From positions 13,826,001 to 13,890,000 of the forward strand of contig OY740821.1 in assembly GCA_963514005.1 (NCBI GenBank): a DNA stretch of 64,000 nt, read 5' to 3'. Every line of letters starts with the position of its first letter. Positions within the stretch are counted from its first letter, which is position 1. Both the position numbers and the translations under genes were made by a program. Shown one piece after another: positions 159-64,000 of this stretch. Source of the DNA: Raja brachyura (taxonomy: Eukaryota). The notes below the pieces were generated by a model. That model was not told the DNA's origin. It ran no database searches and saw nothing but the letters and a program-made list of their open reading frames with translations.

Positions 159-279
159 CTTCATTCGGTGCAATTAAAATTGGGGAGAACGTTTGAGGAG
201 CCGGGAGACAATTTCATCCTTTGTTTTTTCAGTTTCTGTTATTTTGTACTAGTCTGCTTTTTGACGAAGACCGGGAAAC

Positions 280-639: not shown

Positions 640-2412
640 GTAAATATACTCACTGTTGGCAAATAGCAAGCTGTAAGAAGAGTTAAAGTGTGAACTGGTA
701 CAAGTTTTGAAAAAAAAACCCACAATATTAAAGTTTCAAGCAAAATTGTAAATGACCTGGAAAATCAAAAAAAATAGTGCAAAAATAGTAACAACGGCAA
801 TTAATTGTTAAATGCATCGAGTTTCACACTCGAGCAGAGAGTCCGAAAATGGAACTTAAAAACGTTTGTGATATAAAATATATTTGAGATGGGTTGAAGT
901 AACATTAACACATTTTAAAAAGTGATGATTCGGAAATGATTTAAGACTGTTCCAAATTCTAACGCCGTCTAAACTCTAGGATTTAAACATTCACCCACAG
1001 TTAAGAATCCGAATTGAATAATATTATTTTCGCTGGGAATTAAATGGGTTAAAATAAAAGCGGGTGTTTAAAGAATATACATCATTTTCAAATTTAAGTT
1101 TCCCGTATCACGAAATCTTAGTTTAAAAATGGTCTGTCCAAAAACTACAGTTCGGTTGGAAGTATTCTTAAAATAATTTTCAATGGTTTATTCCACGAGC
1201 CGTATATTTTGAAACATCAGGATAGAGAGTTCGTAGAATTGAAATTGTGGATATAACAAGGTGAACTGTGGGGTTGATGAGAGTCTGTTAGGTTTTTTAT
1301 CTCGTTTAGTGTTTCGCGTGTCTTTTCGGGGGGAAAGGGGCGTCATACTTCTGCAAACTGCTTTTCAAAAACTTTCCGAGGCCGCCTCAAAGGTTCGAGA
1401 TTGCTCGAGAATGGTGCAAAATGCCAACCTTTCTCTCCAGCCCAACGCGAGGAAGGTAGGAACACCGTTTTCACGCGGGTAGCTCGCACGACGCTCGCTT
1501 TGGCGAAGCAGCGAGGGCAGGCGTTTGTTTGTATCAATTGTTTTGTAATGCAAGATCTGGCGAATTCCGAAAGGTTTTGTTGATTTCGTTTGATTCGTTC
1601 TGAGCTGAATATTTACCGGGATAATCCAAAACGGCAGATTTCCCACCTAACCCGTTCAAAGGACACGAACATCATAGGATTTCAAGCGTAAAGGGAAGGT
1701 AATTAATTTATATTTTAATGCATGTCCACTATTAACAAGTGGCGTGGTTTTATTTGGGTTATTACTCTTATCCTGAGCGTTGTTATGTGATTCGAGAGTT
1801 CTGTGGGCTAAATCTATAAAATGTTTTAATCTATAAAATCTATCATAGAAGTTTCGCCGAGCTAAAGAAAAAGCAAAGCTGACTCTGCTGTGGGTTCTCG
1901 TTCGTTCAGCGGACAGGGGTGGCTGGGTTGACAAGTTCTTTGAGTTAAATCATCTTTGAGACTTGGGTAAACATGTCGAGAAGACGGAAACCTCTCTTTC
2001 CCTAAGGTGACAGGTTAATCCTGGAGGTGTGTGGAAATTCACTTTCCATGTGGGAATTGACAGCCCGGGAGTAAATCTAGACATGGTTTTATGCGGGGAT
2101 TATTCATCTTTCTGTTGCCCGCTTTGGACAACACACGTTGTGTGCTTCGCTCACCTTGAAGCTGCTATCATCATTGGAGCAGCTTGAGAAAGCGCCAAGG
2201 ACTCATTCTCAGGAACATTTCCTAGTTGGAAGTAAGCAACTAGCCGGCAGCTGTGGACAGGGAGCAGTGAACGTGCTGAACGACTCTGGGTCATGTCCGT
2301 GTCGCGGTACAGCGGCCACATTCCGGAAAATAAAACTGGCAACAAAAAAATCAACTCCACTTGCAAGCAGCGCTCTGTTGTTAGCGCGTCTCCGTCTCGC
2401 TGTCAATTGTGC

Positions 2413-2631
2413 CCAGCGCTAATCCCAGTGTAATCTGTAATCTATACTCTGGGGCCAGCGCTAATCCCAGTGTAATCTATACTCTGGGGCCAGCGCTAAT
2501 CCCAGTGTAATCTATACTCTGGGGCCAGCGCTAATCCCAGTGTAATCTATACTCTGGGGCCAGCGCTAATCCCAGTGTAATCTATACTCTGGGGCCAGCG
2601 CTAATCCCAGTGTAATCTATACTCTGGGGCC
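2413..2631. repeat. Minisatellite, 6 x 35 bp (CCAGCGCTAATCCCAGTGTAATCTATACTCTGGGG)
   Basis: Five identical units plus a first unit with a 7-bp internal duplication; lies in MIP intron 1. Confidence 0.95.
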
Positions 2632-2744
2632 ACTTTCTCAGCAACGTGAGCGGGAGCACTGATCCGGCTACTCTTTAGACAATATCGCTACCTGCAAGCT
2701 AACCAAGCGGGCCAAGCGGCCACTGGCACCGTTATTTGTGGGGT

Positions 2745-3660
2745 CTCGCTGCGCGCAAAACACCATGAGAAGCAAACTGGGTCATCGATCCTGCAAGTTC
2801 TGTGCGCAAAGCATCAACAACGGACCGAGGCGCAGGACAGCGCAATGTTGCCCCTACTGTGCGCAAACACTCCGCCAAACATATCCTACATAGATTGGAC
2901 AGGTTTGGAGGGATATGGGCCAAATGCTGGCAGGTGGGATGAGTGTAGGTGGGACATGTTGGGCCGAAGGTCCTGTTTCCACACTGTATCATTCTATGAC
3001 TCCAGGTGCCCTCTGCTTAAAGCAGTTGTTGGATCTTGCTGTGCGCAAATGACCACCAAGGCAGACTAGGCAATCACTGATGCTTGTGACAGCTTGCTGT
3101 GCGCATAACATCGCCAGAGCAGACTAGATGGCCGTGATTGGACTCTTATTGTGATCTTGCGGTGCGCAAACACCACCAAAGCAGACTAAATGGTGCAAAT
3201 TACATGTTAACTGGGTCCTGCTGTGCGCAAAACATCACCAAGCTGGACTAGGTGTCCACTAATTGCATTTTCTCGTGACATTTTGCTGTGCGCAAAACAT
3301 CTCCAGAGCAAGCTAGCTGGCCCGAATTATATTTTATCTGGGATCTTGCTGTGTGCAAAGCATCGCCGAGATGGACTAAGTGTCCATTCAATGTCTGCTA
3401 TTTTCCTGGCATCTTGCTGAGCGCTAAATCACTGCCAAAAGGCTTGTTGCTGACCAGACGTGGGATCTTGCGCTGTGCGTAAACATACCCAAGCAGAATA
3501 GCCTGTCGTTGGCTGAACGCCCACTGCACAAAACACTGCCCAAACACATGATCCCACGTGGAGAATGTGCGCTGCTTGTCACTGTCTGCAAATCACAGTC
3601 AGAGAATCATCTGCTCACTGGGTTATTGGTAATTTTGGGATATTTCTGTGCGCGCAAAAC
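2745..3660. repeat. Degenerate array with ~60-bp period and conserved (GATCT)TGCTGTGCGCAAA core
   Basis: Cores near 2750, 2801, 2858, 3040, 3098, 3161, 3222, 3287, 3350, 3418, 3474 and ~3650, with divergent intervening sequence. Confidence 0.8.
2895..3002 (+). mobile_element. CR1-type LINE/SINE 3' tail fragment interrupting the array
   Basis: GAGGGATATGGGCCAAATGCTGGCAGGTGGGA...GGGCCGAAGG..CCTGTTTCC..CTGTAT..TTCTATGA resembles the CR1 3' ends elsewhere in the window. Confidence 0.55.
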
Positions 3661-6916: not shown

Positions 6917-7081
6917 CTGCATGCTGGAGTGGGTATTGGCCAGGGCACGGCTGTAGAGATATTCCTTACTCTTCAGTTTGTCCTCTGTATTTTTGCCACA
7001 ACAGACATTCGCAGAAATGGATTCATGGGCTCAGCAGCCGTGATCATTGGCTTTTCACTCACTGTGGGTCACTTCTTTGGG
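6917..7081 (+). CDS. MIP: Aquaporin-0 coding exon 2 (aa 121-175)
   Basis: Acceptor ttctttag|, [55 protein letters not shown], 165 nt, donor GTAAGT at 7082. [21 protein letters not shown] is MIP-typical. Confidence 0.93.
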
Positions 7082-7544
7082 GTAAGTCAGCAAATGTCTA
7101 TCTCGTTTGCCAAAGCGTTAGATGTGGAACATATCCTCAGCTCTGGACGCAAAGGTAAAAAGCACTGTGCCAACAGATAAGTTGCATAATGCAACTCTCT
7201 GTGGTGCTGCCCCATCCAGGCTAAGAAAATCTCCAGTGTATCAGCTTCCTTTAGCTAAGATACAACTGAAGTTCTAAAATAGGCCATGGCCCCCAGAAGA
7301 CGAAGGGGATTAGATTAGATTAGATTAATCTCGTACTCTTGATCATCATCCTGTTGCTAAATTACTGAACAGGAACCTTTAGCAATTCTGCTAAATTGCT
7401 CATTCAATCCAAATGATAATTACCCTTGGAAGAGTCCATGCCATTGTGAAAAGCATGAGGGTTGATTTTCAGTCAGTTGAATTGGCATTCATGGGATCTT
7501 TGCCACCTTGTTATGAATCCAACTCCACACCTTGTGTGGACCAA

Positions 7545-9480: not shown

Positions 9481-9933
9481 TTTTGTTCAGCGGCAAGGCT
9501 GCTACTAACGGAGACCCTATTAAGAGCTGGTAAAAATAGATGCTTTGATAACCTCAGGATCTGGCTCATTTGTGATGCTGCCCTGATGAAATTGCCAGAT
9601 TGTCCAGATTCATGCTTCGGGTGAAGCTCAGATGGGATGTTAGGACCATAGGTACCATGCCCTGGCTCAGTCACAAGGCTTAGGAAAGTAAAACAATTCA
9701 GGGGATTGTATCCACCTGTATCCACCTATCACTCGCCAGGTTTTGTCTTGTCCCCTTCCAGCTATCTCCCTCACACCGCAATCAGACTGAAGAAGGAAAC
9801 ATCGCCTCTCCACAGATGCTGCTTGACCCGCTGATTTCCTCCAGCACTTAGTGTCTTCATTTGTGGGAATGCTCATTTCTAATTAGTTATCGCTATTTTG
9901 TATCTGAATTACTTTATTTCTGTATCTTTGCAG

Positions 9934-10119
9934 GTATACTGGGTGGGCCCTCTGATAGGAGGTGCTATTGCAGCTCTGGTGTACGATTTCATCCTGTTCC
10001 CCAGGATGAGAAGCATGTCGGAGAGATTGGCTATTCTTAAAGGAGCTCATCCCCCAGAAGCGGAGGGGCAGCAGGAACCTCGGAGTGATCCCATTGAACT
10101 CAAAACTCAAGCCTTATAA
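9934..10119 (+). CDS. MIP: Aquaporin-0 coding exon 4 (aa 203-263 plus stop)
   Basis: Acceptor tctttgcag|, [10 protein letters not shown]...[21 protein letters not shown]...PIELKTQAL*. This C-terminus is diagnostic of MIP/AQP0, and the total of 263 aa equals mammalian MIP. Confidence 0.93.
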
Positions 10120-21743: not shown

Positions 21744-22940
21744 TCAGTGAGGAATTGCCGTTATTCTCATACTCTGTGACGCAATTGGATATGTAACCAT
21801 TGGAGTGGTGGCATGGCTTATGGTGATTCCTGGCAGTGCTTGTGCAATTGATACTGCCACTGGTGCAACAGAAACAGCCACGGGGGCCATGGATACTGGG
21901 GGTGCCATTCCCTGGGCGATGGTCTGGGCCAGTGCAGCAGGGAGGGAGGCAATTTCAGGGTTAAGATGTTGTGCTGTTTGTGCAGCATTGCTAGGCGGTG
22001 CAGCAGAAGCAGTTGCCACTAGATCTTGCTGGATGACTGGTCGTGGTTGAAGTGCTTGGCTGCTCAACGTGGTGTGAGTCTGTGCTATACCATGGTTGTA
22101 GTTGCTTAGCGTAGCCACAGCTGGTGCTGCCAGTATTTGCTCTGTCGCTGTGGGAGTGGAAGTCAGTGTCACCACCTTGGTTTGGTTGCGGAAATGTGCA
22201 TTTTGCTCCAAGAGCACCTCGTTAGTTGCCATCAAATTCGAGATCTGCTTTTTCAGTTCCTCAACTCGCTTTCGGAGCATCAGATTCTCCTCTTCTAGAA
22301 ATCGATAGTCCACAGGACGCGAGTTTGAGAGACTAAAATCATAACTTTCAAATCGTAAGCCATCCACTCTTCTCCTCTTTAGAATATGGTCATAGTCAAT
22401 ATAGCGATCAGTCTCATAGAGGTCATCAAATGGGTCGTAGCGTCGCACGACAGGAGAGAGCACTGGGTCTCGTGCCAATCTCTCCAAAGTTCTATTTTCA
22501 TACTCGTATTCATCACGTTTTAAGTGCCGAAATTTACATTTAGATCCTCGTTGACAGTCCCCTTTCAGGTAATCTCGGCAGATTGGAACCTCGCCTTTTT
22601 TAAAAGAAAGGTCAGAAGGTGAAAGGCCAAGACCCATGGCCACCGTAAGGCGTAGACGCTGGGGAAGCTCTCCTGATTTTTTGTAATGTTCCTCATCTTC
22701 CTTTGTCCCATGAATAAACTTGCAGTTGATACGAGTGCACTCCTTGTTCTGATAATCATGGCAAAAGACAAACTCATTTTTTTTAACACCCAAGTCGGAC
22801 ACCTCATTAATGTCGGGGTGGTAGAACTTGCAGCGCTTGCCACGTTTGCAGACATTGCGCAGGAAGTCACGGCAAATATCATCTGAGCTGTGGCCAGCCT
22901 CGTCATTACCTCTGTTAAATAAATTATCTTTATCCGGCAT
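21744..22940 (-). CDS. ZC3H10: Zinc finger CCCH domain-containing protein 10, canonical copy (copy 1), single coding exon, 398 aa
   Basis: MPDKDN...ICRDFLRNVCKRGKRCKFYHPD, FCHDYQNKECTRINCKFIH, ICRDYLKGDCQRGSKCKFRH (three CCCH fingers); KRRR NLS; coiled coil LEEENLMLRKRVEELKKQISNLMATNEVLLEQNA; tail MVTYPIASQSMRITAIPH. The ATG is at 22940 (the ORF track starts at an upstream GTG). Minus-strand acceptor ttttctttttcag| puts the exon start at 22987. Confidence 0.95.
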   Translation of the reverse strand: MPDKDNLFNRGNDEAGHSSDDICRDFLRNVCKRGKRCKFYHPDINEVSDLGVKKNEFVFCHDYQNKECTRINCKFIHGTKEDEEHYKKSGELPQRLRLTVAMGLGLSPSDLSFKKGEVPICRDYLKGDCQRGSKCKFRHLKRDEYEYENRTLERLARDPVLSPVVRRYDPFDDLYETDRYIDYDHILKRRRVDGLRFESYDFSLSNSRPVDYRFLEEENLMLRKRVEELKKQISNLMATNEVLLEQNAHFRNQTKVVTLTSTPTATEQILAAPAVATLSNYNHGIAQTHTTLSSQALQPRPVIQQDLVATASAAPPSNAAQTAQHLNPEIASLPAALAQTIAQGMAPPVSMAPVAVSVAPVAVSIAQALPGITISHATTPMVTYPIASQSMRITAIPH

Positions 22941-24651
22941 CTTCACAGACTATTATTGTGCTTCTCAGCAACTGTATAGAAAAACATCTGAAAAAGAAAA
23001 TCAAGGTACGTCTTTACAGAGAAGGAGGAAGTCACCCACAAAGCAAGTGTCACTTGAACCACTGCATTTTGGCCTCAGCAAGCTGAACGACCTTTGCGTG
23101 GGAAAAATAAAGGCTTCTAATTGTGTCTGTCTGGTGTCAGCATCAAATATTATTACAAAATTAGTTGTAGAAGTTAAATACGCTCCCCTTCGATTTGTCT
23201 ACTCTAGAACTTCGGGTAAACAAGTCCCATTGTAGCAGTGACACAATTTACTTCCCCAATAATTGGTTCATTTATTTTAGTAAATTATAGATTTTATTTT
23301 TGCAGCTACATATGCCCATTAAGATTTTGTTTAAAGTTTGCCACACTTGTTTCATTTTGAACAACACAACTAAAAAAAGGTGTATGTGTGTGTGCGCGCT
23401 TGCTTGCACCCGCCTGTGCGTCCCATTTCCCCCCCCCCCCCGAAGGTGCCCGTGTCTCCAACGCTCCCACATACTGCCTTGATAGAGTTTCACGAGAAAA
23501 TGTTTGCATCTTCAGCCAGCAAATATTTCCTGCCGTTATCGTCGCAGGGCTAAATATGATGCTAAGCTTACATATTTGATTAAAGATGAGGCCAACTTGT
23601 ACTGATTTTCATTGTAGTTGTCCTTAGCCCAAAGTAAAGGGGGAATATAGCCGGAGTTCCCCTTTCTGATTCCAACTCAGTTATTTCTGCTGGGAAATAC
23701 ACAACTGTACACTGAAACTACTTTCCAGTACATTATTTCTAATTTAATACTTGAAATTTCACATGACTCCAGAAGCCAATCAAAAACAAAACAGCCAATA
23801 GAGTGCAGACCAAGCTTGCTTAAATCGCAATTTGATAATGACCGGTTACTCTATTATAGCAAGACAGGTTAATTGATAAATATTAACTACAATTGCTAGG
23901 AATTACAATGCCTGACAATAGATAACACAACTTGGAAGAGGACTTTGGCACCCAACCAACAGGCACGTGGAAGCATTATCGGGACGTTCCCTCTTTCTCT
24001 TTTCTGGGAGCTCTTTCCATCCAGTCGACTCCAACACAGCAAGATGTGGAGTACAGCATCATTAGATGTCAACATTAGGCCTTTACTACCACGCCTCAAG
24101 ATCACTGCAGTCTGTCAAGACAGCAAGAGATGCAGGCAGCAAGCAGTCTGACTGCTTTCCAATATTGTTTAAGGGTCCCTATCTAAAGTAATCTGTGGTC
24201 TCTGATTTACCAACAGATCTTGGCAGAAAAATTCACATCATAATCATGCCCTGTGTAAAATTAGATTTCATGATCGTTTATTTATGCTCTGATTGTCATG
24301 TCGCTGAGCTTAATCGTAATCCCCATGATGCTGAAGACCTCCAAGGTTGTCCTTTGTCCTTCTATATTCCATCAGAAGGCTATCTTCCCAAGTCTCCTTT
24401 TTTATTTAAAGAAGATAGACAAATTGATAAAAAGGACTTATTTCAGAAAGTATTTGCACAATTATCAAGGGTTGGGAGAATTATGTCTATGTAAGAGATC
24501 GATCTCTTAGCTAGGCATAATTCTCCGTGCCTTTCATCTGCAGCGCTTGTAACACGGGAAGCTCTGTGCAGCCCACGTGCCGTCAGCGCTGCCTGAAGCC
24601 GTCAATTTAAAGCGGGGTTGAAGGCGGCTGAAATTCTGCCTTTGCTGTACA

Positions 24652-24683
24652 GCGCATGCGCAGCAGCCTACTGCGCATGCGCA
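24652..24683. promoter_or_regulatory. Two NRF1-type GCGCATGCGC sites in a CpG-rich patch; candidate promoter region for copy 1
   Basis: GCGCATGCGC at 24652-24661 and TGCGCATGCGCA at 24672-24683, about 1.7 kb upstream of the copy-1 coding exon. May instead be transposon-derived. Confidence 0.35.
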
Positions 24684-24733
24684 GCGCTAGTTTCTTGGCG
24701 GATTTTTCAAATATGGATTGGCATTATTTTAAG

Positions 24734-24767
24734 CAAAGATTATAGAGGAGCTCCTCTATAATCTTTG
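24734..24767. repeat. Perfect 34-bp palindrome
   Basis: CAAAGATTATAGAGGAG|CTCCTCTATAATCTTTG. Confidence 0.9.
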
Positions 24768-24895
24768 ATTTTAAGTGTATCTTAGGAAACGGGGAGAGAA
24801 GAATGGAGCTTGTGTACCAACAACATGGTAAATACATTTCTTGGTGATGTTTTTAAATACCGTATTTCCCGGGTTGTGGGGGTGTACGGAGAGCT

Positions 24896-25532
24896 CCTTT
24901 CACAGCGTTTGGGGAGTCTGGCCCGGGGCAAAGTTGCGGGGAGAGCACAAATGTTGTGAAGGAGGGGATCGGGATAATGCCACTTGCGACGCTCCTTGCA
25001 CGGAGGCGTGCAATGTCACTGCATTGAGGCCGGGGGGGGGGGGGGGGGGGGAGAAGTAGCTCGGGTGGCAGAGCGGCCGCCGGGCCGGACAGCGGAACCA
25101 GCCGCCACCTTAGCTCCTTCTGCCGGTCCCTACTCACCTCTGGCAACTCTCCGTCTAAAAACCTCTCTCCTGCCGCTCGCTGGCCTCACTCATGTCCTTA
25201 AATTCCGATAGCGCGATTGAGGTTACTCGGCTGTGGGAATTTAAGGATTTGCAGGAAGCCGCTGACATGAGCGAAGTCGGCGAGCGGCAGGTGAGAGGTG
25301 TTCCGACGGAAGAGCACTGCCAGAGGTGAGCGGGCCGGCAGAAGGTGCTGAAGTGGCGACCGCTCGCAGCTCCCCGAGCTGCTTCTATCGCCGGCTACAG
25401 TGCGGTGGCTTCGCGCCCAGAGAGCTGCGGCAGTGGTGCGTTACTGGCATTATCCCGACCCCCTCCTTCTCAACACTCCTGCTCTCCCCACAACTTTACC
25501 CCTGGCACAGACTCTCCACACGCTGTGAAAGG
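24896..25532. mobile_element. GC-rich foldback (MITE-like) element, long imperfect inverted repeat
   Basis: Outer arms CCTTTCACAGCGTTTGGGGAGTCTG and CAGACTCTCCACACGCTGTGAAAGG; inner arms TCCTTAAATTCC and GGAATTTAAGGA around ~25220. Confidence 0.75.
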
Positions 25533-26512
25533 AACTGTCCCCCCCCAATTGGTCCCTTGAACAAGTGTTGTCATTCAATTAGATGACAACTGATTCAACT
25601 TGTCCCTATACTCCCATTTTTCCCACCATCTCTCCACTTGCCATCACCCTTCATCCCCCACCCATTCAGTAATTCAGAATAAAGGAGACTAGGAAGCCTT
25701 GGGCAAATTGAATTGTTACTGTCTTTATTTTTATTTTTTATTTTTACGGAGAGAACAATCTGGGCATGCGCGGTTTAATTTTTTTTTAAAGCCGACTGAG
25801 TGCCTACCCTGAGTAATTACTCACGGTACGTGCCTGGTTGAAACCCTTGTGTTCACTCAAGAGGGGGCGAGATGTTCTGAAGCTGCTGTAAGTGTGGATT
25901 TCTATAAAACGTTGAGCAACATCTACCTCCCTTATCTGTACTTCTGTCCAAACGAATTGCAAGGAGCCTCCCAGAAGTCACATGTATTCCAGCCTTTGCT
26001 GCTGTTCCCTTTCTGATGAACAAGCCTGCTACATCGGATCCGGACACAGACCAGTCATTAAGACTTACATTATTTTCAGAAATAATTGAGAAGTTGCTGC
26101 AGAACTCTGCATTCCCTTCTGTACAAATAAACAGTCCAAGAGCATACAAGATCAAAAACAATGGCAATTAAAAGCAGTTGCTTGAAAAGCACAACTTGTC
26201 AGTGACAAACTGCCTGTGCACACTGCTGACTTCTATGACAAGTTTAAACTTACCACTTCTGGATTTGCCACTGGCATCTTGTCACTACTGGCAAGACAAA
26301 CATTTACTACCCACCCTTAATAGACCTCAACAAGTCATCTTCTTAACTTGCACAGTCCTTCCAGTGGATACAAGCCCACAATATTTAGGGTAGAGAGTTC
26401 CAAGGTTTAGACCCAATTACTTTGAAGGAACAGCAATATGTTACCAAGTCAGGATGGCGGACGACTGGAAGCAACCTGCAAACTATGATGTTCTCATAGG
26501 TCTGCTGTCCTT

Positions 26513-31196: not shown

Positions 31197-31979
31197 TTGT
31201 AGATTCTATTCTGAAATCGATTTCACCTTACTACCTCTTCTCCCAGTTCCAAAAACTCTCAAAACTTGGCTTCAAATCACTTTGAGACACCTCATTTAAC
31301 TCTCTCCGAGAGTCCAGTCTTCTCTCTATAGACTAGTCTGATGAAAGGTCTCGACCCAAAACATCACCTTTTCCTACTCTCCAGAGATACTGCGTGACCC
31401 GCTGAGCATTTTGTGTCTATCTCCTCTCTATAAAGTTTATTGGGACATTTTATTATATTAAAAAGGTTTGACATAAATACGAATTAATGTACTAACAAAA
31501 AAGAAAGCATTTTAACCGCAGTCTTACTCCAACTATTAATAACAAATATCGAATATTTTGTGACTCAGGGGCAATCCAAGAATTCTTTAAACAATGTTTA
31601 TTAAGTTTGTTACTGTGAATCAAACCACATAGAGTAACAAACTTGCTAAGGTTTCGAAGGCTGTTATGGGATTTCTAGGCCTCGGCATTCTGTTGGATGG
31701 AGCAACTCCATACGCAAATAGAACTAAATCCTGACTAAAAATATTTAAATTATAGGCGTAATTAACAGAGTGGATTGGAACAATTACAAAATTGACAGAA
31801 AACAGGGACATATTTACAAACACGGTTAAGCTCCTTTTACTCACTCCTCCAAACACAACGAGTACCACACAGGTCCTCCCAGACAAGAGCGACTTAGAGT
31901 CAAATAGCTGCACTTGGCTGGAATGCTTAATTTCTCACAATGGGATGATGTATTTCAAGTTAAAGTTGTTAAATTGAAT

Positions 31980-32900
31980 ATCCACAAGATATTTTTTTCA
32001 ACGTAAATGCCTGAGCATATTGTACTGGAATACAGTCCCACCGCACATAGACGTTGCCGGCTGCTGAACAGATGCCTGCAGCGACACTCCCTGCAGCGTC
32101 TTCTGCCGTCGCTCTTGCCTCGGAGGACCAGAATGGAAACTCGTCGTGTTTGGAGGACCAAGTGAGGGGAGAGGGGGGGGGGAAGGCTAAATAGTGTAAG
32201 TGAATGCGTTGTCTTTTCTCCATTTGTTATTGGTCGAGTTTATTCCAATATTGGTAAACTGTAATTATTAATATCCATCTTTGAGAAATAGAACAATGTT
32301 TAGTTCGCATCTGTGCGCTGGAATTGATATCGGTCCGTGTGAATCACTTGAGGCCTAGGAGCGCAGTTGAAGCCTCGCGCCAAGTTCGAGAACTTTCCGT
32401 CGCAACCCCCACCAAAACTGTCAACATCCAGGTTTCCTCATGGCGGTAGCCTAAGAACAAGGATTGTTTAAGGCAGAGAAGTCACGTGTAGTGGTTGGGT
32501 TAAAACCTATGGCCGTCTTGGAAAAAAATGGATTAGTGGAATCCGGACACAGAATGAAAGTCCAATGAATGAACCATACAAAGTGTCCAAGATGAGTGTA
32601 GTTTACCAATCACGGGATTCCCACATAATTTATAAATCCGTATTAAAATATGTCCGTTTTAAAATTAATTGAAGCCGTTTGCTCCAGGCGCCGACCGATG
32701 GTGCAGCCCATCTTCAACCGAGTGGTTGTGCAGCATTTGGTGCCCCGGTTGAGAATGTCGCTGAGTTTGGGGCAAAAGAAGATCACCGCTGTTCAGTCAG
32801 GTGCAAAATGCGTTGTTAAAATGAAAGTGGATATTTTGCCGCCTGCCATGGTGTAATTCAGCAGTGTTTGGCGAGTGAAGTTGAACCCTTCCCATTCCAT
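31980..32900. promoter_or_regulatory. CpG-enriched putative promoter and first non-coding exon of ZC3H10 copy 2
   Basis: Local CpG enrichment; TCTGCCGTC and CTCTTGCCTCGGAGGACCAG...GGAGGACC motifs shared with the 48 kb and 62 kb modules; candidate donor AA|GTGAGG at 32162. Confidence 0.45.
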
Positions 32901-36750: not shown

Positions 36751-37273
36751 CTTTTAATGAGATCGGCTGACTCTGGTGAGTTAAATCAGCACTACTTCTT
36801 CATAATCTTCTTTAACATGTTGCTTCAGGAATTTGTTTCCAGTACTGATTCTAACATCCTGCATTCACAAATTACTATAAAAATCACTTGTAGTATGAAT
36901 TTAATTTTTTCCATGCGTGTACTATCTGGAGTGCAATAATCGAGAAGACATGTTTACTTTGTTATGCCGGTGTCTTTTTCAGAAAAACTCAAAGCATTGG
37001 TATTTGCGATATTAAAAGTAAAACTGCCGACTTAATACTGCTTATCTCTCTTTAAATTTTAATATAAACCTTGATGTTCCACTGGTAACTTGCTGTAGGT
37101 ATTTTCTATTGAATTAACGATGTAGGAGCAGCTACAATATTTTGTGAGAAAGGGATTAAGCTAAATTACTTTGTAGATGAATCTCTTATTTATTGTAAAA
37201 GACCTGGCTTCTTTTTCTTTTACAGTTGTTTATTGAGAGCCTTGGCTGAGTAGCGCAGAAATATTCTGGAAGC

Positions 37274-38821
37274 ATGTCCGAGAACGACACTGATAATTTA
37301 GTCAACAGCGGCAAATATGAGCCTGGCAAGAGCAAACGGAATGTTTGCCGAGACTTTCTGCGCAATGTCTGCACTCGTGGTAAGAATTGCAGGTACTTCC
37401 ACCCTGACAATGTTGAGGCCTCCGACCTTGCCGACATAAGGAACGACACTGATAATTTAGTCATCATTGCTAATGACGAAGCTGGCAAAAACAAATCGAA
37501 CATTTGCCGAGACTTTCTGCGCAATACCTGCAACCGTGGTAAGAATTGCAGGTATTTCCATCCAGATGATATTGAGCCGTCTGTCCTCGCTGACGTAAGG
37601 AACGACATTGATAATTTAGTCAACTTTGGCAATGATGAGGCTGACAAAAACAATCTGAATATTTGCCGAGACTTTCTGCGCAATCTCTGCAATCGTGGTA
37701 AGAATTGCAGATATTTTCACCCAGATGATATTGAGGTCTCCAACCATGCTGACATAAGTGATGACGCTGATAATTTCGTGAATAATAGCAAATTTGATGC
37801 GAGCAAGAGCAAACGGAATGTTTGTCGTGACTTTCTGCGCAATGTCTGCACCCGTGGTAAGAATTGCAGGTACTTCCACCCGGACAATATTGAAGCCTAT
37901 GATGTAGGTGATATGCGGCATGAGTCTATCTTTTGTCAGTACTTTCAAAATAGCAAATGTACCCGTGAGAACTGCACGTTCATTCACGGGACAAAGGGTG
38001 AAGAGAATTATTACAATAAAACAGGAAAGCTTCCTGCCCACTTACAAAAGACAGTGGCTGTGACATTCGGGCTCTCGCCCTCTAATTTGCCTCTTATTAC
38101 AAAGGAAGTCCCATTCTGCCGTGACTTTCTAAAAGGCAAATGTCGAAGAGGATCCAAATGTAAATTCCAACACTTGAAACGTGATGACAATGATAAGACG
38201 AGTGTAGAAAATGTGTCACAAAATAAAGAAGTTTCTCCTGAGATCTGTAGATATGACCGTTTGGATGACCTGTATGAGACAGAGAAATGTGATGTTGACC
38301 AAACTCCAAAAAGGAAAAGAACGGAAGGTCTACGGTTTGAAGTATTTGATTACAGCATCCCCAGTCTGCGTCCAGTTGAAATGAATTTTTTGGAGGAGGA
38401 AAACCATATGCTCAGAATGCGCAATGAGGAGCTTAAGAAGCAGGTGTCAAGCCTAATGATTACAAATGAGGTACTTCTGGAGCAAAATGCTGATTTACGC
38501 AAGCAAGTGAAACTGGGGATCCTGACCACAGGGACTGACCCAACACAATCATCAGCTATGCATGCTGTTACCAATTATAATCATAGTATAGTGGAGACTC
38601 ACACCGCCCTGAGCAACCAGGTTGTGAGATCAGAGTCTATTTCTCATCAAGAATTGATAGCGCAAGCTAGAGCTCATAATGCTTTATGTTCTGAAGCTAC
38701 ATCCCAAAGTCCACCCTGTCTTAGTGCTGCTCTCTCGACTCTCTCGACACCTTATGCCCAAGGGGTGGCTTCACCAGTTTCAATCGCACAATTGCCATCT
38801 CAGTTGCACCATTGGCAGTGA
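37274..38821 (+). CDS. ZC3H10: ZC3H10-like paralog (copy 2) with six CCCH fingers, 515 aa; C-terminus frameshifted (homology continues to 38934)
   Basis: Acceptor ctttttcttttacag| at 37225/37226; 4 x CRDFLRNxCxRGKNCRYFHPD, then CQYFQNSKCTRENCTFIH and CRDFLKGKCRRGSKCKFQH, PKRKR, and coiled coil LEEENHMLRMRNEELKKQVSSLMITNEVLLEQNA. Confidence 0.88.
   Translation: MSENDTDNLVNSGKYEPGKSKRNVCRDFLRNVCTRGKNCRYFHPDNVEASDLADIRNDTDNLVIIANDEAGKNKSNICRDFLRNTCNRGKNCRYFHPDDIEPSVLADVRNDIDNLVNFGNDEADKNNLNICRDFLRNLCNRGKNCRYFHPDDIEVSNHADISDDADNFVNNSKFDASKSKRNVCRDFLRNVCTRGKNCRYFHPDNIEAYDVGDMRHESIFCQYFQNSKCTRENCTFIHGTKGEENYYNKTGKLPAHLQKTVAVTFGLSPSNLPLITKEVPFCRDFLKGKCRRGSKCKFQHLKRDDNDKTSVENVSQNKEVSPEICRYDRLDDLYETEKCDVDQTPKRKRTEGLRFEVFDYSIPSLRPVEMNFLEEENHMLRMRNEELKKQVSSLMITNEVLLEQNADLRKQVKLGILTTGTDPTQSSAMHAVTNYNHSIVETHTALSNQVVRSESISHQELIAQARAHNALCSEATSQSPPCLSAALSTLSTPYAQGVASPVSIAQLPSQLHHWQ
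37283..37918 (+). repeat. Intragenic coding tandem repeat, 4 x 159 bp (53 aa)
   Basis: Unit starts at 37283, 37442, 37601 and 37760, exactly 159 bp apart and all in frame. Confidence 0.92.
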
Positions 38822-41800
38822 CTCAATTGCTCCCAGGACTTGTCATGACTTATACCACCACACAAATGGTCAGTTATCCAAATGCATCACAGAATATGAA
38901 GTTCCTCTGTCGTGCAGAGGATAGTTGTGATTAGAAGGCATTTCTTTTGAAGCTTTACAAGAGATTTCTATTTCTTATTGGTTCCCAGGGCAATTGCATA
39001 AACTGAGTCAAGTATGATTGTTAAAGAGGGAGTCTCACCATCACCAACCCTTTTGCAAAGTCAAAAATGAAATGATGAGAATTTGTGTTTTCTGCCTCAT
39101 TTGTTGCTGTTGAACTCGTCTGGAGAACAGGTTGCGCAGAATTGTCCCTCAGCAGTAGTAGCAAATGGAAGTTGAAATGTGCTTCAATTTGCAACCATAT
39201 ATGTCGCAAATTTCTTTTGGGGGGGGGGGGGGGGTAAGAAAGATTGAACTCAAGTTTTTGAATTCTTTCAAACCTTTTTTTGATTTGCTCATATTGTAAG
39301 CTCTGGTGCAAATGAAAGCAAAGTATTTGGCAGCGCATTGCAATGCCCACACTAACTCAAGCTTTCCGACTGCAGCAGCAGCAGTGGGATACGGTTTTGT
39401 CTGCAAATATGGCTACTTTCTTTTGCTCATATAAAATTGGTTTCAATCAACATCAAAACATCAGCTTTCTAAAAACACTTGTACATGCGCTTAAAGAGCA
39501 TTGTGCCTTTACATTTTTTTTAATCGCTTATTTTTAAAGACAAGAAATTATTATAAAACTACAAAAAAAATTACCCTCATCCTCTCCATCATACCACCCA
39601 ACCAAAAATAAAATCCTCTGCTGCTTTGATTGTGGTCAGAGCAGAAATTAAAGAATGCAAAAAATGACACCATGGCTCCCTTTTCTCCCTCTTGTTGGAG
39701 AACTGTCTTGCAATAAGTATGACAGTTTTACCCACAGATGGAGGGAATGCAAAACTATAACATAATGGCTCTCTTTGTTTAAATGCAGGAATGAACCCGG
39801 GGCTAATTTCCATTGATGGCATTGGAAGTAAGATCCATAAAGCACCTTGGGTTAATAAGTGCAGCTAATGATGATCATCAAGTTCTTTTAAGCTGTCTTG
39901 CGCCAACATTTCTCAAATTAGAGTACTCTAAACTACAAATTGTATTAATAATTTATATCAAGCAAAAAAACCAACTTTATCTTCTACAAGGTATACTGAT
40001 GGCAAGACTTCCTCTACGTCTGTTAAATATAGAAATCTGCAAAAAGAACAATAATGGAGTGATAGGCTGTGTCAAAACAGATAATTCAAAGTGAGTGAAT
40101 AAACTTTCCCATTCATTTTTTGGTTGATTACTGATGTATTTTAAAACATTTTTAAACTGATCCTATGCCACAAATGTCATTTCCCTTTTTAATCTGAAAT
40201 TACACTTGGGATTATTACTGGGAAAAAAATAGTAATATCCCCTACTTTACTAAGTAAAAGTATTCTGATCTTTTCAAACATTTTTGTAACTAGCCCATTT
40301 CTCAGTAAACGTGTGTGGAAACGTTTTTTTAAGAAAGTCATGTGCGTTTAGTGTTTTCCTAATGAAACACTCCCTATGCTTCACAAGTCTTCAACTAACA
40401 TATTATATTTTTTGCAAATAGTTTTTCTCTAATCATTGCATTTGTTACTCGCACTGTGACTATGTATTTCTTTCAAAGCTGTGCAAGTCCTCTGTAGATT
40501 GGGCTACAAAAAGCATTTTTAGAAATAAAATGAGTACATGTTCACCATAAACAGTCACTGAGGCCACCAAGGATATTAAAGTGAAGCAAGAATAATTGGG
40601 GTGCAAGCTTCTAAAGCAGAGTTAAATGTAATATATACAGATTTGGTTTGGTGCCTGGAACGTGGAGACTGGATGTTGGTCAATAAATAAGCATGACCAG
40701 AAAAGCAGCAGAAGATGTGGAGAAACAATTGCTGGTTTCTTATATTTGATGTATTATTGGAAGGTTGATGCTCAGCACTTGTAAATTTCCATGCCGTTTT
40801 CTCATCTAGCTGGGATGCTCCCTGTCAGATGCCTCATTGTACTAGCTCATTGTCAGTCGGGATTCGGGGGGTGTCTGCTGTTCCCTGCGTTCGGTATTGT
40901 AACAATTAAGTTGCAAAACCAATGAGAAAAAATAAATACACATTCATACAAAAACTCACTATATAGATGCTATACAGTATATGTAAACGTGTATGTATGT
41001 GATTTGACTAAAATATATTTTAGTCGTGGACAGTATAAACATGCATCAATGGTTATTATCCGACTATTCCAGTTGAAAATGCTTGTGGATGGTGAGGATA
41101 GAATCTGACTCGGCAAAATATGCTACCTGGGCTCATAAATTTAAATAGTATTGCTACCTTAACCACATTGTGAGCGTACCTTTTGAATGAAAAATATGAT
41201 AGTAGGAAATTGCCAGAGGAAAAAGGGGAAGTCCTGTAGAGAAGCACAGATTAGAAAAGTAGAATGCAGCAAATAACCTGGCATTTACTATAATGTCCTG
41301 ACTGGTTCTCAGTTTAGGTGTTAACTTATGACTGCTTTGCATGAGTAGTGCATAATTGTGCCCATTTAAATTTTCCTTGCTCAAACAAAATATACCAATG
41401 AGTAAGTTGTAAAGAGGAGGTAAGAGTTAGTGATATTCTAATGATTAACCTATTCCTGCATATTACTATCATAATGTTAATTTTGCAATTTTTAAATTAA
41501 AGCTTTTAATCAATATTTTTGACTTGGAAGACAGTAGATTTCTAACTTGCCACAATGTGCATGGGAATTTATATGTGATGGTATTTCTGCCAGTCAGTCA
41601 GTGATGTTGAAAATATACTTTGTGGGGAGGGATTCAAAGGCCAACACCATCAGTGAGATATTTGGCACATGTGCTTCTGTAAACCATGGTTTTAAAATAC
41701 AGCTAACACTTTACTATATTGAAAATCCCTGAGATTTTACAACACAGCAACTAACGTCCAAGATTAGTTAACTGCGGCCAAAAAATCCAAAACTACAGCA

Positions 41801-47956: not shown

Positions 47957-48656
47957 TTTTAACACGGGCAGTCAAAATCGATGTCTAAATAAACTTCAGT
48001 GCTTGCATTTTCCTGTTTAAAATGTGGAAGGATTGGTTATGGTTATATTGCAGAGAATACATCTGCACTCTAGATTTAATCACTGATTTAAAATGTTATT
48101 GGAAGGCCACATAGAAAAGAATGCATTTTTAAATGACCGATCCAAACTTCATTAAGGTTTGATGTTTGTTATCTGTTTGGTATTGCCAGGCAATGCCAGG
48201 CTTCACTGTGTCTGCCGTCAACGGTGTTGGTGTTGCCTTCAGCTGGCGGGCGGCAGGGGACCGGGGTTTCCTCTTGGCTCGGAGGACCAGTCACTTTACA
48301 CTTTACCCTTTACTGGGAGGACCTGCGTAGAGCCTCTTTGTGTCGGAGCTGTGAGGGAAGAAGCCGAGCCGAACTGTATAGGTATCCCAGCCCTGGTTTG
48401 TGAGTTTTCATGCACTTTAATGTACCCGTGGCAATCTCGATTTGAATGTGCAAACGTTGTGCGGAGAGAGTCGGCATTTGTCTGCGGCCGGGAGGCGTTT
48501 TAATTGTAACAGGAAGTCGAGGCCTAAAGGCGCCATTGCGGCCTTAAATCCAAGCAAGGCGATAGTGAGATTCCTGCTGCTTCTCACAGCTACAATCTGG
48601 AGCGACTGAGCCTGTGTTCATCAAAGCACATGCTTAGATCTATAGATCGACGATAA
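47957..48656 (+). repeat. Duplicated module, copy A (putative promoter/5' non-coding exon upstream of ZC3H10 copy 3)
   Basis: 48121-48656 reads identically to 61896-62431 (offset 13775); 47957-48120 aligns with a few substitutions and two indels. Confidence 0.9.
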
Positions 48657-53400: not shown

Positions 53401-54462
53401 TGGGGTAGTTTATAGGGCTGCACAGTGGTTGGCAGCTGCTGCCTCTCAGCTCCAAGCACCTGGGCTCATAGCTGTTTTCAGATTATCTCATATTTTCCCA
53501 TGGTAGACAAAAATGCTGCAGGTGAGGCAGCATCCATGGAGAGATGGAAATAGGTGACTTTTCGGGTCGGGACCCTTCAATTTCTTCTTATTTTACCAAA
53601 GTATTTCTGGCAGGTTAATTAGCTACTCTAAATTATAGAAGAATAAGTAATTATTAAGTAAGTAACCCCCTAATTATAAGTAAGTGGCAAAGAGAATCAA
53701 AGGGAAGTTAATAAGTGAGGAGAAGTTGCTGGGATACGGGGCAAGTAAAGTGGTAGTATGAGACGAGTGACGTTGTCATCCTGGGAGGTATAATTTATAA
53801 GATAAGTATAAAGAAATGGGGAAAATTTTATGATTTAAAAAAAAATAAAATAAAACTTTCCTCCAAATCTGTAAATTGTACGTGGATGGTCTTTTATTTT
53901 TCTCTTGTTTATTAATTAGACATTCCCAGACGACTCAGTTTAAGGTGACCAGTTGTGCTATATAGCCTATAAGTCCCAAGTCTTATCTCTGTTGTTATGA
54001 GTTATCTAATCACAGCTAGCTTGGTGGTATGGAATGTCACGTTGTCTTTCGGCGAGTTCTCCAACAGGGAGTGAAAATTAAATCAGTCTTGTTCCAGATC
54101 ACAATGCAGTGGCCCCTTCTGGCACTGCATGTGTGAGCATGTTTGGCTTTGATGTCCTTGCATGAGAATAGCTTCCTAATAGTTGAAAAACTGGGTGAGG
54201 AACAAGAAAACCCCTAAATCTAATATACCTATGTTGTCTTCATGAGTGGAAAGAAGCAATTTGAGACTGAGTAGATTGTTGAAATTCTATTATTTAATAT
54301 TGTAAGTACGTCTTCCATTAAATTGATGGAAATTTAAGCACTGATACGGGTGAATTGGTACATTTTCAGTTAATTCCCTTTGTCTTTGTTAAGATGTAAC
54401 TTGTTTTTCTTTTGCAGTTCCTTGCTGAGCATCTTGAATGAACAGCGCTGAATTAAACTAAA

Positions 54463-54950
54463 ATGTCAGGTACAGATCATGTAGTCAACACTGGCAACAA
54501 CATGACTGCCAATGGCATTGATATTTGCTGAGAACCCGTGCAACTTCTGCATCTGCGCCAAGCGCTGCAAGTTCTACCACCCAAAGGCAAATAAGGTTTT
54601 TGTGCTTGGCTTTTTTTCTGATGACCTACGTATTAAATTCTGGATACCAGTCTGCACTGACTGACAGAAGGTTGGACTCCAGTGATCAGGTGCAAATTGC
54701 TGATAGAACCATATAGGTACTGTGAAAATTGCAATGTGGAAAGCGTGTACCATTTTCCTGTGCTTTTTCCTTGAGTAGATGTCTATCGAGACATCCGCAA
54801 AATGATCCACATCATCAAGATGGGAATGATGTATCCTCAGATCATATCCAGTCGATTTCTCATACTTTCACAAAAAACGTATGCTGTGAAATTACAATTG
54901 CGAACAACACACGTGTCAAACCTGGAGCAAAATGCACGCATCTGCTAACT
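54463..54950 (+). pseudogene. ZC3H10: ZC3H10 pseudogene (copy 3)
   Basis: Acceptor ttttcttttgcag| at 54417/54418 and a 5' UTR like copies 2 and 4; MSGTDHVVNTGNNMTANGIDIC* with TGA at 54529 replacing the Arg of DICRD; after a frameshift, C..AKRCKFYHP; later CTGGAGCAAAATGCA (LEQNA) at ~54922. The 3' boundary is approximate. Confidence 0.75.
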
Positions 54951-61698: not shown

Positions 61699-62431
61699 TT
61701 TTAACTTGGGCTGTTGAAAACGATGTTTAAATAAACTTCAGTGCTTGCATTTTCCTGTTTAAAACGTGGAAGGATTGATTATGGTTATATTGCAGAGAAT
61801 ACATCTGCACTCTAGATTTAATCCAAAGGGGGTTCACTGATTTAAAATGTTATTGGAAGGCCACATAGAAAAGAATGCAGCATTTTTCTCAAACGATGCA
61901 TTTTTAAATGACCGATCCAAACTTCATTAAGGTTTGATGTTTGTTATCTGTTTGGTATTGCCAGGCAATGCCAGGCTTCACTGTGTCTGCCGTCAACGGT
62001 GTTGGTGTTGCCTTCAGCTGGCGGGCGGCAGGGGACCGGGGTTTCCTCTTGGCTCGGAGGACCAGTCACTTTACACTTTACCCTTTACTGGGAGGACCTG
62101 CGTAGAGCCTCTTTGTGTCGGAGCTGTGAGGGAAGAAGCCGAGCCGAACTGTATAGGTATCCCAGCCCTGGTTTGTGAGTTTTCATGCACTTTAATGTAC
62201 CCGTGGCAATCTCGATTTGAATGTGCAAACGTTGTGCGGAGAGAGTCGGCATTTGTCTGCGGCCGGGAGGCGTTTTAATTGTAACAGGAAGTCGAGGCCT
62301 AAAGGCGCCATTGCGGCCTTAAATCCAAGCAAGGCGATAGTGAGATTCCTGCTGCTTCTCACAGCTACAATCTGGAGCGACTGAGCCTGTGTTCATCAAA
62401 GCACATGCTTAGATCTATAGATCGACGATAA
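61699..62431 (+). repeat. Duplicated module, copy B (putative promoter/5' non-coding exon upstream of ZC3H10 copy 4)
   Basis: 61896-62431 reads identically to 48121-48656, and both give the same 114-aa ORF translation. Confidence 0.9.
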
Positions 62432-63872: not shown

Positions 63873-64000
63873 ATGCCAGATAACGGCACCGAGGAGGCTG
63901 GCCCCAGTACAGATGATATTTGCCGTGACTTCCTGCGCAACGTCTGCAACCGCGGTAAGCGCTGCAAGTTCCGCCACCCAGACGCTAATGAGATGTCCAC
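63873..64000 (+). CDS. ZC3H10: ZC3H10-like paralog (copy 4), 5' part only; runs off the window
   Basis: Acceptor ttttcttttgcag| at 63824/63825; ATG at 63873; MPDNGTEEAGPSTDDICRDFLRNVCNRGKRCKFRHPDANEMS is open to the window edge. Confidence 0.85.
   Translation, partial: MPDNGTEEAGPSTDDICRDFLRNVCNRGKRCKFRHPDANEMS

What the first reader, a model, noticed from the sequence alone, without database searches (positions are those of the whole stretch)
37274..38175. New domain architecture: ZC3H10 paralog with finger 1 amplified fourfold (six CCCH fingers, A-B-B-A pattern)
Seen: four in-frame 159-bp units, each a C-x7-C-x5-C-x3-H finger plus the N-terminal acidic linker. Linkers have diverged while all Cys/His ligands and the CRDFLRN and RGKNCRYFHPD blocks are intact. 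Units 1 and 4 share KSKRNVCRDFLRNVCTRG..HPDN, and units 2 and 3 share NDEA.KN..NICRDFLRN.CNRG..HPDDIE. The basic CKRGKRC of copy 1 becomes CTRGKNC or CNRGKNC. Inference: conserved fingers amid diverging linkers suggest purifying selection on a multivalent RNA reader with changed specificity or avidity. The A-B-B-A order needs unequal crossover or conversion beyond simple serial duplication.
Basis: partly seen in the sequence, partly recalled or inferred. Interest (0 to 1): 0.8.

Follow-up and report, generated by a model that had tools for sequence, protein, structure and literature searches.

The report
Six-finger ZC3H10 of sharks and rays
Sharks, rays and skates carry an extra copy of the RNA-binding gene ZC3H10 in which the first zinc finger was quadrupled long ago and has been kept ever since, probably to grip clustered RNA sites; it is a real but unstudied variant of a known gene.

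Summary
37274-38821 (+) encodes a 515-aa ZC3H10 paralog with four 53-aa finger-1 units plus fingers 2 and 3.

It is not recent or skate-specific. The same six-finger, four-unit layout occurs in named shark proteins (Heptranchias, Chiloscyllium, Pristiophorus), in Narcine and in one unnamed record (81-96% identical). Units cluster largely by position, so the array predates the shark/ray split (about 306 Ma).

Purifying selection holds for fingers (dN/dS 0.12) and also for linkers (0.28). The A-B-B-A split is significant (9:0:2 sites), but histories by plain serial duplication are not rejected (p-AU 0.12-0.32).

- finger 2 lost a His-Asp pair and a basic residue that are near-invariant in 147 canonical proteins;
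- an unamplified sister protein already carries part of that change;
- the gene sits in a four-copy cluster of 3-, 6- and 2-finger genes plus a pseudogene;
- a frameshift shared with the unnamed record replaces the conserved tail.

Best reading (inferred, 0.5): a nuclear, coiled-coil, multivalent RNA reader using several weaker finger-1 pockets for clustered GC steps. New variant of a known kind.

The parts
32108..32167 (+). Putative non-coding first exon and GT donor (GT at 32162) for copy 2; an inverted homolog 215 bp away points towards copy 1 (putative bidirectional promoter)
   Evidence: 50-bp match at 84% to 31893-31845(-); four-way alignment; GTGAG after each element; CpG o/e 0.85 at 32001-32500. 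Exon status inferred, no transcript seen
37186..37273 (+). Polypyrimidine tract, AG acceptor (37224-37225) and 48-nt 5' UTR of the single coding exon
   Evidence: Homologous in all four copies; argues for segmental duplication rather than a retrocopy
37274..38821 (+). Copy 2 CDS, 515 aa, six CCCH fingers
37283..37441 (+). Unit 1 (A type); finger at 37346-37402
37442..37600 (+). Unit 2 (B type); finger at 37505-37561; least conserved unit across species
37601..37759 (+). Unit 3 (B type); finger at 37664-37720
37760..37918 (+). Unit 4 (A type); finger at 37823-37879, joined to finger 2 by the ancestral 18-aa spacer
37934..37987 (+). Remodelled finger 2 (CQYFQNSKCTRENCTFIH): H>Q, D>Y and R/K>T at near-invariant positions; identical in 6 of 6 six-finger proteins
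38069..38080 (+). GLSP; Ser268 matches the p38 site S126 of mammalian Zc3h10
   Evidence: PMC6911170 passages
38117..38173 (+). Finger 3
38306..38320 (+). PKRKR, matching the mapped NLS (aa 205-213, PGPKRRRGG in the marmoset protein)
   Evidence: PMC13375009 passages
38387..38512 (+). Coiled coil / bZIP-like helix
   Evidence: AF2 helix aa 367-418, block pLDDT 76-90 over aa 371-410; weak Pfam bZIP_1 E=0.093, below cut-off
38789..38934 (+). One-base frameshift near 38790; the ancestral C-terminal tail (..MVSYPNASQNMKF..) survives out of frame in the 3' UTR
   Evidence: the same new end SQLHHWQ in unnamed P0001, intact tail in 4 of 4 named orthologs
21744..22940 (-). Copy 1, canonical three-finger ZC3H10 (398 aa)
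31839..31893 (-). Homologous putative first exon and GTGAGT donor pointing towards copy 1
54375..54715 (+). Decayed ZC3H10 pseudogene of the two-finger type (frameshift and stops); its putative first exon is at about 48300-48351
   Evidence: tblastn E=5e-9 with P0191; alignments
63873..64000 (+). Start of copy 3, a 226-aa two-finger ZC3H10 lacking finger 2 (runs off the window); its putative first exon is at about 62075-62126

Best explanation
An ancient, functional, elasmobranch ZC3H10 paralog that works as a multivalent single-stranded RNA reader. History: whole-gene tandem duplication made a ZC3H10 cluster (shown: shared acceptor and upstream element). One copy first remodelled its fingers (inferred from the unamplified sister protein). 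The 53-codon N-terminus holding finger 1 was then multiplied to four before sharks and rays split, and the number has stayed at four (shown in 6 of 6 proteins). Mechanism (inferred): canonical ZC3H10 binds AGUGCAG/GCAGCG using fingers 1 and 2 together. Here finger 2 has lost conserved pocket-side residues, while four finger-1 copies keep the predicted base pocket (Arg, Asp, Phe after Cys1; Arg after Cys2; aromatic after Cys3) but carry less positive charge (+4 vs +6 each). Set on flexible acidic 34-aa spacers, they should bind single GC steps weakly and clustered or repeated GC steps strongly by avidity. The retained NLS and coiled coil should place it in the nucleus as a dimer with up to eight finger-1 modules, acting on pri-miRNA or pre-mRNA processing.
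For: Full-length six-finger orthologs at 81-96% identity. Stem branch 0.47-0.59 against short crown branches (end branches 0.01-0.10): burst, then stasis. Finger 2-3 region 89 of 91 residues identical skate vs bamboo shark. dN/dS 0.12 fingers, 0.28 linkers. Position profile against 147 three-finger proteins: pocket positions retained, basic positions 9, 13 and 17 lost; finger 2 H(145/147)>Q, D(147/147)>Y, R/K(147/147)>T. P0259 is sister (93/89, unstarred) and shares D>Y and R/K>T with one finger 1. ZF1 and ZF2 are the RNA-binding fingers and each is required (PMC6911170, passages and section 9, reporting Treiber 2017). Motif AGUGCAG/GCAGCG (PMC11612968 passages). The closest solved fingers are MBNL1's (E 4e-8), where each finger may read a GC step by Arg and aromatic stacking (PMC4176163 and PMC9780971 passages). 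AF2 on unit 4 to finger 3 gives three separate finger folds (block pLDDT 69-82) with low-confidence linkers, pTM 0.31.
Against: No binding or expression data. Finger 2 is identical in all six orthologs and keeps the Arg matching R89, so it is re-specialised rather than dead. One GC step per finger is transferred from MBNL, whose fingers pack as tandems, and Foldseek found no significant structural match (0 at E<=0.001). Low pTM may reflect a shallow alignment (79 rows), not real flexibility. The full-length model failed in the repeats (mean pLDDT 39.5). Unit 2 tolerates changes at conserved positions (D>H, F>L/I in single species) and unnamed P0001 has L>Q in unit 3. Mammalian ZC3H10 also acts on DNA (PMC6911170, PMC13375009 passages). 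Synonymous divergence is lower in fingers than linkers (p=0.031), so conversion or DNA-level constraint may contribute to finger similarity.
Confidence: 0.5

Rival explanations
1. It works mainly on DNA, as a transcription regulator through the bZIP-like coiled coil or by finger binding to single-stranded promoter DNA; the extra fingers add DNA half-site readers or protein-docking surfaces.
For: Mouse Zc3h10 binds the UCP1 promoter through its bZIP region without fingers (PMC6911170 section 9). Human ZC3H10 represses ISG promoters and needs all three fingers, the NLS and the coiled coil (PMC13375009 passages). Coiled coil, NLS, S126 site and R89-equivalent are all retained.
Against: The finger amplified is one of the two RNA-binding ones. 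A finger-independent DNA role would not explain selection on four finger copies. The loss of basic residues fits DNA backbone binding less well (inference).
Confidence: 0.2
2. It is a modulator subunit: 2-, 3- and 6-finger paralogs heterodimerise through the shared coiled coil, and copy 2 retargets or dampens copy 1.
For: All cluster members with a full sequence keep the coiled coil while finger content varies. Copies 1 and 2 appear to share a head-to-head promoter. Copy 2/copy 1 coiled-coil model: weak support, score 0.59 vs best of 3 controls 0.00, runs agree in at least 80% of contacts, partner pLDDT at least 75. The mark was reached by 51 of 78 solved and 2 of 108 mismatched pairs, but at 0.60 or under by only 5 of 78 solved and by all 4 mismatches that passed (of 180); on eukaryotes by 39 of 65 solved and 2 of 126 unrelated pairs.
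Against: Such a pass is more often wrong than right unless likely beforehand; close cousins of a true partner pass (10 of 12), and coiled coils may pass by likeness to solved structures. The homodimer was not modelled. This is compatible with the best explanation rather than exclusive of it.
Confidence: 0.2
3. Neutral repeat expansion kept alike by gene conversion; the finger number has no function.
For: Synonymous divergence is lower in fingers (dS 0.38) than linkers (0.96). Some residues are shared by units within a species (T in units 1 and 4 of 3 of 3 batoid-clade proteins but 0 of 3 sharks). Neighbouring copies have decayed or lost fingers.
Against: The number is four in 6 of 6 proteins across the shark/ray split. 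Units group largely by position, not by species. dN/dS is well below 1 in fingers and linkers.
Confidence: 0.07
4. The skate copy is a decaying pseudogene, or the array or frameshift is an assembly error.
For: The frameshift removes a tail motif matched in 127 of 169 proteins screened. It sits at a short A run.
Against: An independent record, 96% identical, has the same shifted end and all six fingers. The 515-aa ORF is open. The old frame has lost its own stop, as expected for a real and older shift. The array is shared with sharks.
Confidence: 0.03

Closest known systems
ZC3H10 (vertebrate three-finger CCCH protein)
   Same: Finger 1-2-3 order and spacing, GLSP phospho-site, NLS, coiled coil, single coding exon behind a short 5' UTR; about 48% identity over the shared two-thirds.
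   Different: Four finger-1 units instead of one; less basic finger 1; finger 2 His-Asp>Gln-Tyr; in this lineage a frameshifted tail.
NCBI/UniRef 'zinc finger CCCH domain-containing protein 10-like' of Heptranchias perlo, Chiloscyllium plagiosum, Narcine bancroftii, Pristiophorus japonicus
   Same: Orthologs: 81-86% identity, 98% coverage, six fingers, same unit order.
   Different: They keep the 545-557-aa tail. Their names are automatic and do not note the architecture.
MBNL1/MBNL2 zinc fingers
   Same: Best PDB sequence matches (E 4e-8 to 3e-4); C-x7-C-x4/6-C-x3-H fingers with Arg and aromatic stacking residues in matching places; multi-finger GC-step reading is the working analogy.
   Different: MBNL has two packed tandems with x6/x4 spacing and no coiled coil of this kind (recalled). 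Here there are x5 fingers on 34-aa spacers and no significant fold match.
Crustacean four-finger ZC3H10-like proteins (Petrolisthes P0124, Oratosquilla P0140)
   Same: An extra finger-1-like finger N-terminal to the 1-2-3 core, a precedent for gaining a finger at this end.
   Different: One divergent extra finger on a long unrelated linker, not a periodic 53-aa array; an independent origin is inferred, not tested.
Internal tandem domain-repeat expansion in general
   Same: [quoted passage not shown]
   Different: Here the number has been frozen for about 300 My, with no exon boundary at the units.

Membership tests
ZC3H10 family | Finger 1 (x7-x5-x3), finger 2 (x7-x4-x3), finger 3 (x7-x5-x3) core with all Zn ligands | tested here: met
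ZC3H10 family | NLS and coiled coil after the fingers | tested here: met
   PKRKR at aa 345; helix aa 367-418
ZC3H10 family | Nests among ZC3H10 proteins in homology searches and trees | tested here: met
Canonical ZC3H10 ortholog | Exactly three fingers | tested here: not met
   six; 150 of 169 screened relatives have three
Canonical ZC3H10 ortholog | Finger 2 C-H-D-[FYH]-Q-N pocket residues | tested here: not met
   C-Q-Y-F-Q-N; D in 147 of 147 canonical proteins
Canonical ZC3H10 ortholog | C-terminal MV(S/T)YP..SQ motif | tested here: not met
   out of frame in the window and in P0001; present in 4 of 4 named orthologs
Canonical ZC3H10 ortholog | Binds AGUGCAG/GCAGCG RNA; binds UCP1 or ISRE DNA | not testable with these tools
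   needs Bind-n-Seq, CLIP or ChIP
Elasmobranch six-finger ZC3H10-like orthogroup | Four positionally orthologous finger-1 units plus remodelled finger 2; monophyly | tested here: met
   100/100 clade; unit trees
Elasmobranch six-finger ZC3H10-like orthogroup | Conserved synteny in other species | not testable with these tools
   no vertebrate genome collection is on hand; only protein records were seen
MBNL/Muscleblind family | Two tandem pairs of x7-x6-x3 and x7-x4-x3 fingers | tested here: not met
   finger spacing x5 with 34-aa spacers
MBNL/Muscleblind family | Packed antiparallel tandem fold | tested here: inconclusive
   no match at E<=0.001; rmsd over 11 A to MBNL tandems, but model pTM is 0.31
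Processed retrocopy | Loss of introns and upstream exon | tested here: not met
   acceptor and putative first exon are retained and homologous across copies

The most novel reading that the evidence does not exclude
Sharks and rays turned ZC3H10 into a dedicated reader of repeated GC-step RNA (CAG/CUG-like or multi-site hairpins), converging on MBNL from another family. The clustered 2-, 3- and 6-finger paralogs would combine through a shared coiled coil into dimers of different valency, a finger-number code for RNA target selection kept for about 300 million years.
Probability: 0.15. Interest if true: 0.72.

Novelty: new variant of a known kind. Interest (0 to 1): 0.45.

Why it matters
It is a natural valency series (2, 3 and 6 fingers) of one poorly understood protein whose RNA versus DNA role is disputed in mammals. 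A probable intermediate survives (remodelled fingers, not yet amplified), and the array has been stable for about 300 My. That makes two questions directly testable: how finger number and spacing set RNA target choice, and whether finger 2 changed before finger 1 was multiplied. It is not a new kind of system: domain-repeat expansion is common, and the protein is already in RefSeq under an automatic name.

Tried and rejected
Assembly artefact and recent skate-only expansion: rejected.

Retrocopy: rejected.

Origin as a recent duplicate of elasmobranch copy 1: holding the six-finger proteins with the two elasmobranch copy-1 proteins is rejected modestly (p-AU 0.024). The sister group is unsettled: two-finger tandem copies (91/94, without P0259), P0259 (93/89).

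Wholesale concerted evolution: rejected. Units 3 and 4 each form starred clades across species; units 1 and 2 are unresolved.

Proof that A-B-B-A needs conversion or loss: tried four ways, never significant.

Structure: full-length AF2 failed in the repeats. The core model gave no confident inter-finger packing and no significant Foldseek match.

Other lineages with this array: the whole-library HMMER search gave 1579 hits, 150 listed; only P0003 matched residues 1-304 in one stretch at high identity. The unnamed multi-stretch hits were not opened. The repeat-region search gave the same five clusters, then a drop to 29% identity.

Other content of the window: Rfam found 0 families. Pfam on 115 of 242 other ORFs of 62 aa or more found only two MIP exons.

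Literature: no paper on this paralog in the listings of searches for ZC3H10 (40 of 191 listed), ZC3H10+shark (3 of 3), zc3h10+paralog+duplicat (3 of 3) and CCCH/tandem duplication/domain repeat/elasmobranch (15 of 255). One search was too loose to count (15 of 5,930, none with ZC3H10). The library lacks most subscription papers and supplements were not searched. PMC7661038 (one passage) did not map the Zc3h10 side of the Dot1l contact.

Left open: the species behind the 26 cluster members (one search returned no data), the organism of P0259, expression, and synteny.

Full report
OBSERVATION. The stretch is the 5' part of a single-exon ORF, 37274-38821 (+), 515 aa. TRF reports period 159, 3.9 copies, 78% matches. 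Each 53-aa unit holds a C-x7-C-x5-C-x3-H finger, spaced 34 aa His-to-Cys; fingers 2 and 3 of ZC3H10 follow. The unit corresponds to residues 2-54 of three-finger copy 1 at 21744-22940 (-), the whole N-terminus up to finger 2. Two-versus-two nucleotide sites are 9 for 14|23, 0 for 12|34 and 2 for 13|24.

WHAT IT IS. The first search scored 8000 candidates, found 521 hits and listed 120. Five clusters match full length: an unnamed record (96%), Heptranchias (86%), Chiloscyllium (85%, 19 members), Narcine (86%) and Pristiophorus (81%); the remaining listed hits cover at most 67%. All five have four finger-1 units and the same finger 2. A search with the repeat region alone returned the same five, then fell to 29% identity. 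In the whole-library search only P0003 matched 1-304 in one stretch. These genera span both shark superorders and the batoids (taxonomy recalled). The window's protein groups with Narcine (100/99) and copy 1 with Rhinoraja (80/87), so the window is probably a skate (inference). The shark/ray split is put at 306 Ma and the holocephalan split at 421 Ma (PMC3692497, abstract). None of the four Callorhinchus proteins retrieved has more than three fingers, which is weak evidence of absence. In unit trees, units 3 and 4 each form starred clades across species, while units 1 and 2 are unresolved but do not group by species. So the array was built once and then frozen.

THE LOCUS. The window holds a MIP-family gene and four ZC3H10 copies: copy 1 (three fingers, minus strand), copy 2 (six), a decayed two-finger-type pseudogene at about 54375-54715, and copy 3 from 63873. 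Copy 3's 226-aa product lacks finger 2 and has a Callorhinchus ortholog. All four share the acceptor and 5' UTR. Each has upstream, on its own strand, a related 50-bp element followed by GTGAG. The elements for copies 1 and 2 face outward from a 215-bp gap near 32.0 kb. I read these as first exons and a bidirectional promoter; no transcript was seen. This indicates whole-gene duplication rather than retroposition.

SELECTION. Between units in the window, pooled NG86 dN/dS is 0.12 in fingers (bootstrap 0-0.54) and 0.28 in linkers (0.11-0.57); the six pairs are not independent. Across six proteins, orthologous fingers are 87-98% and linkers 78-89% identical. The six-finger clade has a stem of 0.47-0.59 changes per site and short crown branches, end branches 0.01-0.10. 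The finger 2-3 region is 89 of 91 identical between skate and bamboo shark; copy 1 is 247 of 258 over its N-terminal part, and the repeat region of copy 2 is 181 of 212. One result complicates this: synonymous divergence is lower in fingers than linkers (p=0.031), and also low between copy 1 and unit 4 in finger 1 (pS 0.36 vs 0.69-0.98 in fingers 2, 3 and the coiled coil). Conversion or a DNA- or RNA-level constraint may act there. Conversion would lower dN and dS together, so the low ratio still indicates selection (inference).

A-B-B-A. The unrooted split is significant. Whether it needs more than serial duplication depends on the root, because (1,((2,3),4)) and ((1,(2,3)),4) are ordinary tandem histories. 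Maximum likelihood prefers ((1,4),(2,3)), but those two are not rejected: p-AU 0.13-0.26 on DNA with copies 1 and 3, 0.14 adding the pseudogene, 0.12-0.13 on 24 protein units, 0.19-0.32 with P0259. At the nine sites, both outgroups back B at three and A at three, and three are split or uninformative. P0259 carries two A-type residues, which weakens the case further. Expansion in the middle of arrays is common (PMC1553488, abstract). Verdict: favoured, not shown.

WHAT CHANGED IN THE FINGERS. Against 147 three-finger proteins (from 169 screened; rows with other finger counts or patterns were dropped), the 24 amplified fingers keep R1, F3, R5, N6, R10, G11, K12 and the aromatic at 16 in all copies, and D2 in all but one. 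They replace basic positions 9 (K/R 142 of 147), 13 (R 137) and 17 (R/K 139); skate copy 1 already has Tyr at 17. Net charge falls from +6 to +4. By alignment to MBNL1 finger 3 the kept residues match R186, F188, G196 and the stacking F202 named in PMC9780971 (passages); the Arg before G196 (R195, numbering inferred from the alignment) is also kept. Finger 2 changed more: H>Q (145 of 147), D>Y (147 of 147), R/K>T (147 of 147), identical in 6 of 6 orthologs. P0259, an unnamed three-finger protein, shares D>Y and R/K>T and has a de-charged finger 1; it is sister to the clade at 93/89. This suggests remodelling came before amplification. NLS, coiled coil, S126 site and R89-equivalent are retained. 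A frameshift near 38790 replaces the conserved tail in the window and in P0001 but not in the four named orthologs.

HOW IT LIKELY WORKS. Known: ZF1 and ZF2 carry RNA binding and each is needed (PMC6911170, passages and section 9, reporting Treiber 2017, which I did not read). The motif is AGUGCAG/GCAGCG (PMC11612968, passages). In MBNL each finger may read one GC step and flexible linkers allow varied spacing (PMC4176163, passages). Inferred: copy 2 trades one two-finger site for several weaker finger-1 contacts on acidic tethers, selecting clustered GC steps by avidity, as a nuclear dimer. AF2 gives separate finger folds with unsure linkers (pTM 0.31), which is consistent but weak; the full-length model failed and Foldseek found nothing significant. 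Rivals are a DNA-directed role (PMC6911170; PMC13375009, passages), a heterodimeric modulator (weak support only; score and calibration counts are given under rivals), neutral expansion, and decay.

COMPARISON AND NOVELTY. It is a member of the ZC3H10 family, not the canonical ortholog and not an MBNL. Two crustacean ZC3H10-like proteins have one extra N-terminal finger. The orthologs are in NCBI under an automatic name. I found no paper describing the architecture in the listings; supplements and subscription papers were not seen. Verdict: real, ancient, selected, a new variant of a known kind; function inferred only. Interest 0.45.

Noticed in passing
window 54375-54715 (+): Decayed fourth ZC3H10 copy of the two-finger type, with acceptor and 5' UTR still recognisable; its N-terminus (MS..D.VVN) resembles copy 2's.
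   Followed up: partly
window 63873-64000 (+); P0191, P0192, P0219: Copy 3 lacks finger 2 and most of the tail and has a Callorhinchus ortholog; a further two-finger group (P0132, P0152, P0212) also exists. Finger 2 seems to have been lost more than once in cartilaginous fishes.
   Followed up: partly
window 31839-31893 (-) and 32108-32167 (+): Inverted pair of homologous exon-like elements with GT donors, a candidate bidirectional promoter for copies 1 and 2.
   Followed up: partly
window 47957-48656 and 61699-62431: A 733-bp non-coding block is 94% identical upstream of the pseudogene and copy 3, although their coding parts are only about 67% alike: recent conversion or a conserved regulatory or non-coding exon.
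   Followed up: no
finger-1 codons: window 22818-22874 (-), the four units, 63921-63977: Unusually low synonymous divergence in finger-1 DNA even between old paralogs (pS 0.36 vs 0.69-0.98 in other conserved domains for copy 1 vs copy 2). Unexplained.
   Followed up: partly
window 38789-38934: Frameshift drops a C-terminal motif conserved from acorn worm to mammals; the old frame is still readable and close to Narcine's tail but has lost its stop.
   Followed up: yes
5' UTRs at about 37250, 54440 and 63850: AGCGC(A/T)G is kept in copies 2, 3 and the pseudogene but not copy 1; it resembles the ZC3H10 RNA motif GCAGCG, a possible cross-regulation site. Not tested against chance.
   Followed up: no
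window 24500-25750: CpG island with two GCGCATGCGC palindromes (24652, 24673; NRF1-like, label recalled) and donor-like sites on the minus strand: a probable second promoter of copy 1.
   Followed up: no
window 265-666, 6917-7177, 9883-10116 (+): Exons of a MIP/aquaporin-0-like gene next to the cluster; MIP and ZC3H10 are both on human 12q13 (recalled).
   Followed up: partly
P0005; P0008 and P0009: Pristiophorus has a short extra KYEA repeat before unit 4; Rhinoraja has two near-identical three-finger copies.
   Followed up: no
PMC13375009, plasmid section: The primers listed for the R89A mutant read as a change in the DLYDIYDLPD segment rather than at residue 89, so I did not lean on R89.
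   Followed up: no
window 2436-2632, 3087-3386; repeats near 18666, 29108, 45916 and 6065/36544/43056: 35-bp and 63-bp minisatellites, and LINE-like and SINE-like fragments (labels recalled; no Pfam hit among the ORFs tested).
   Followed up: no
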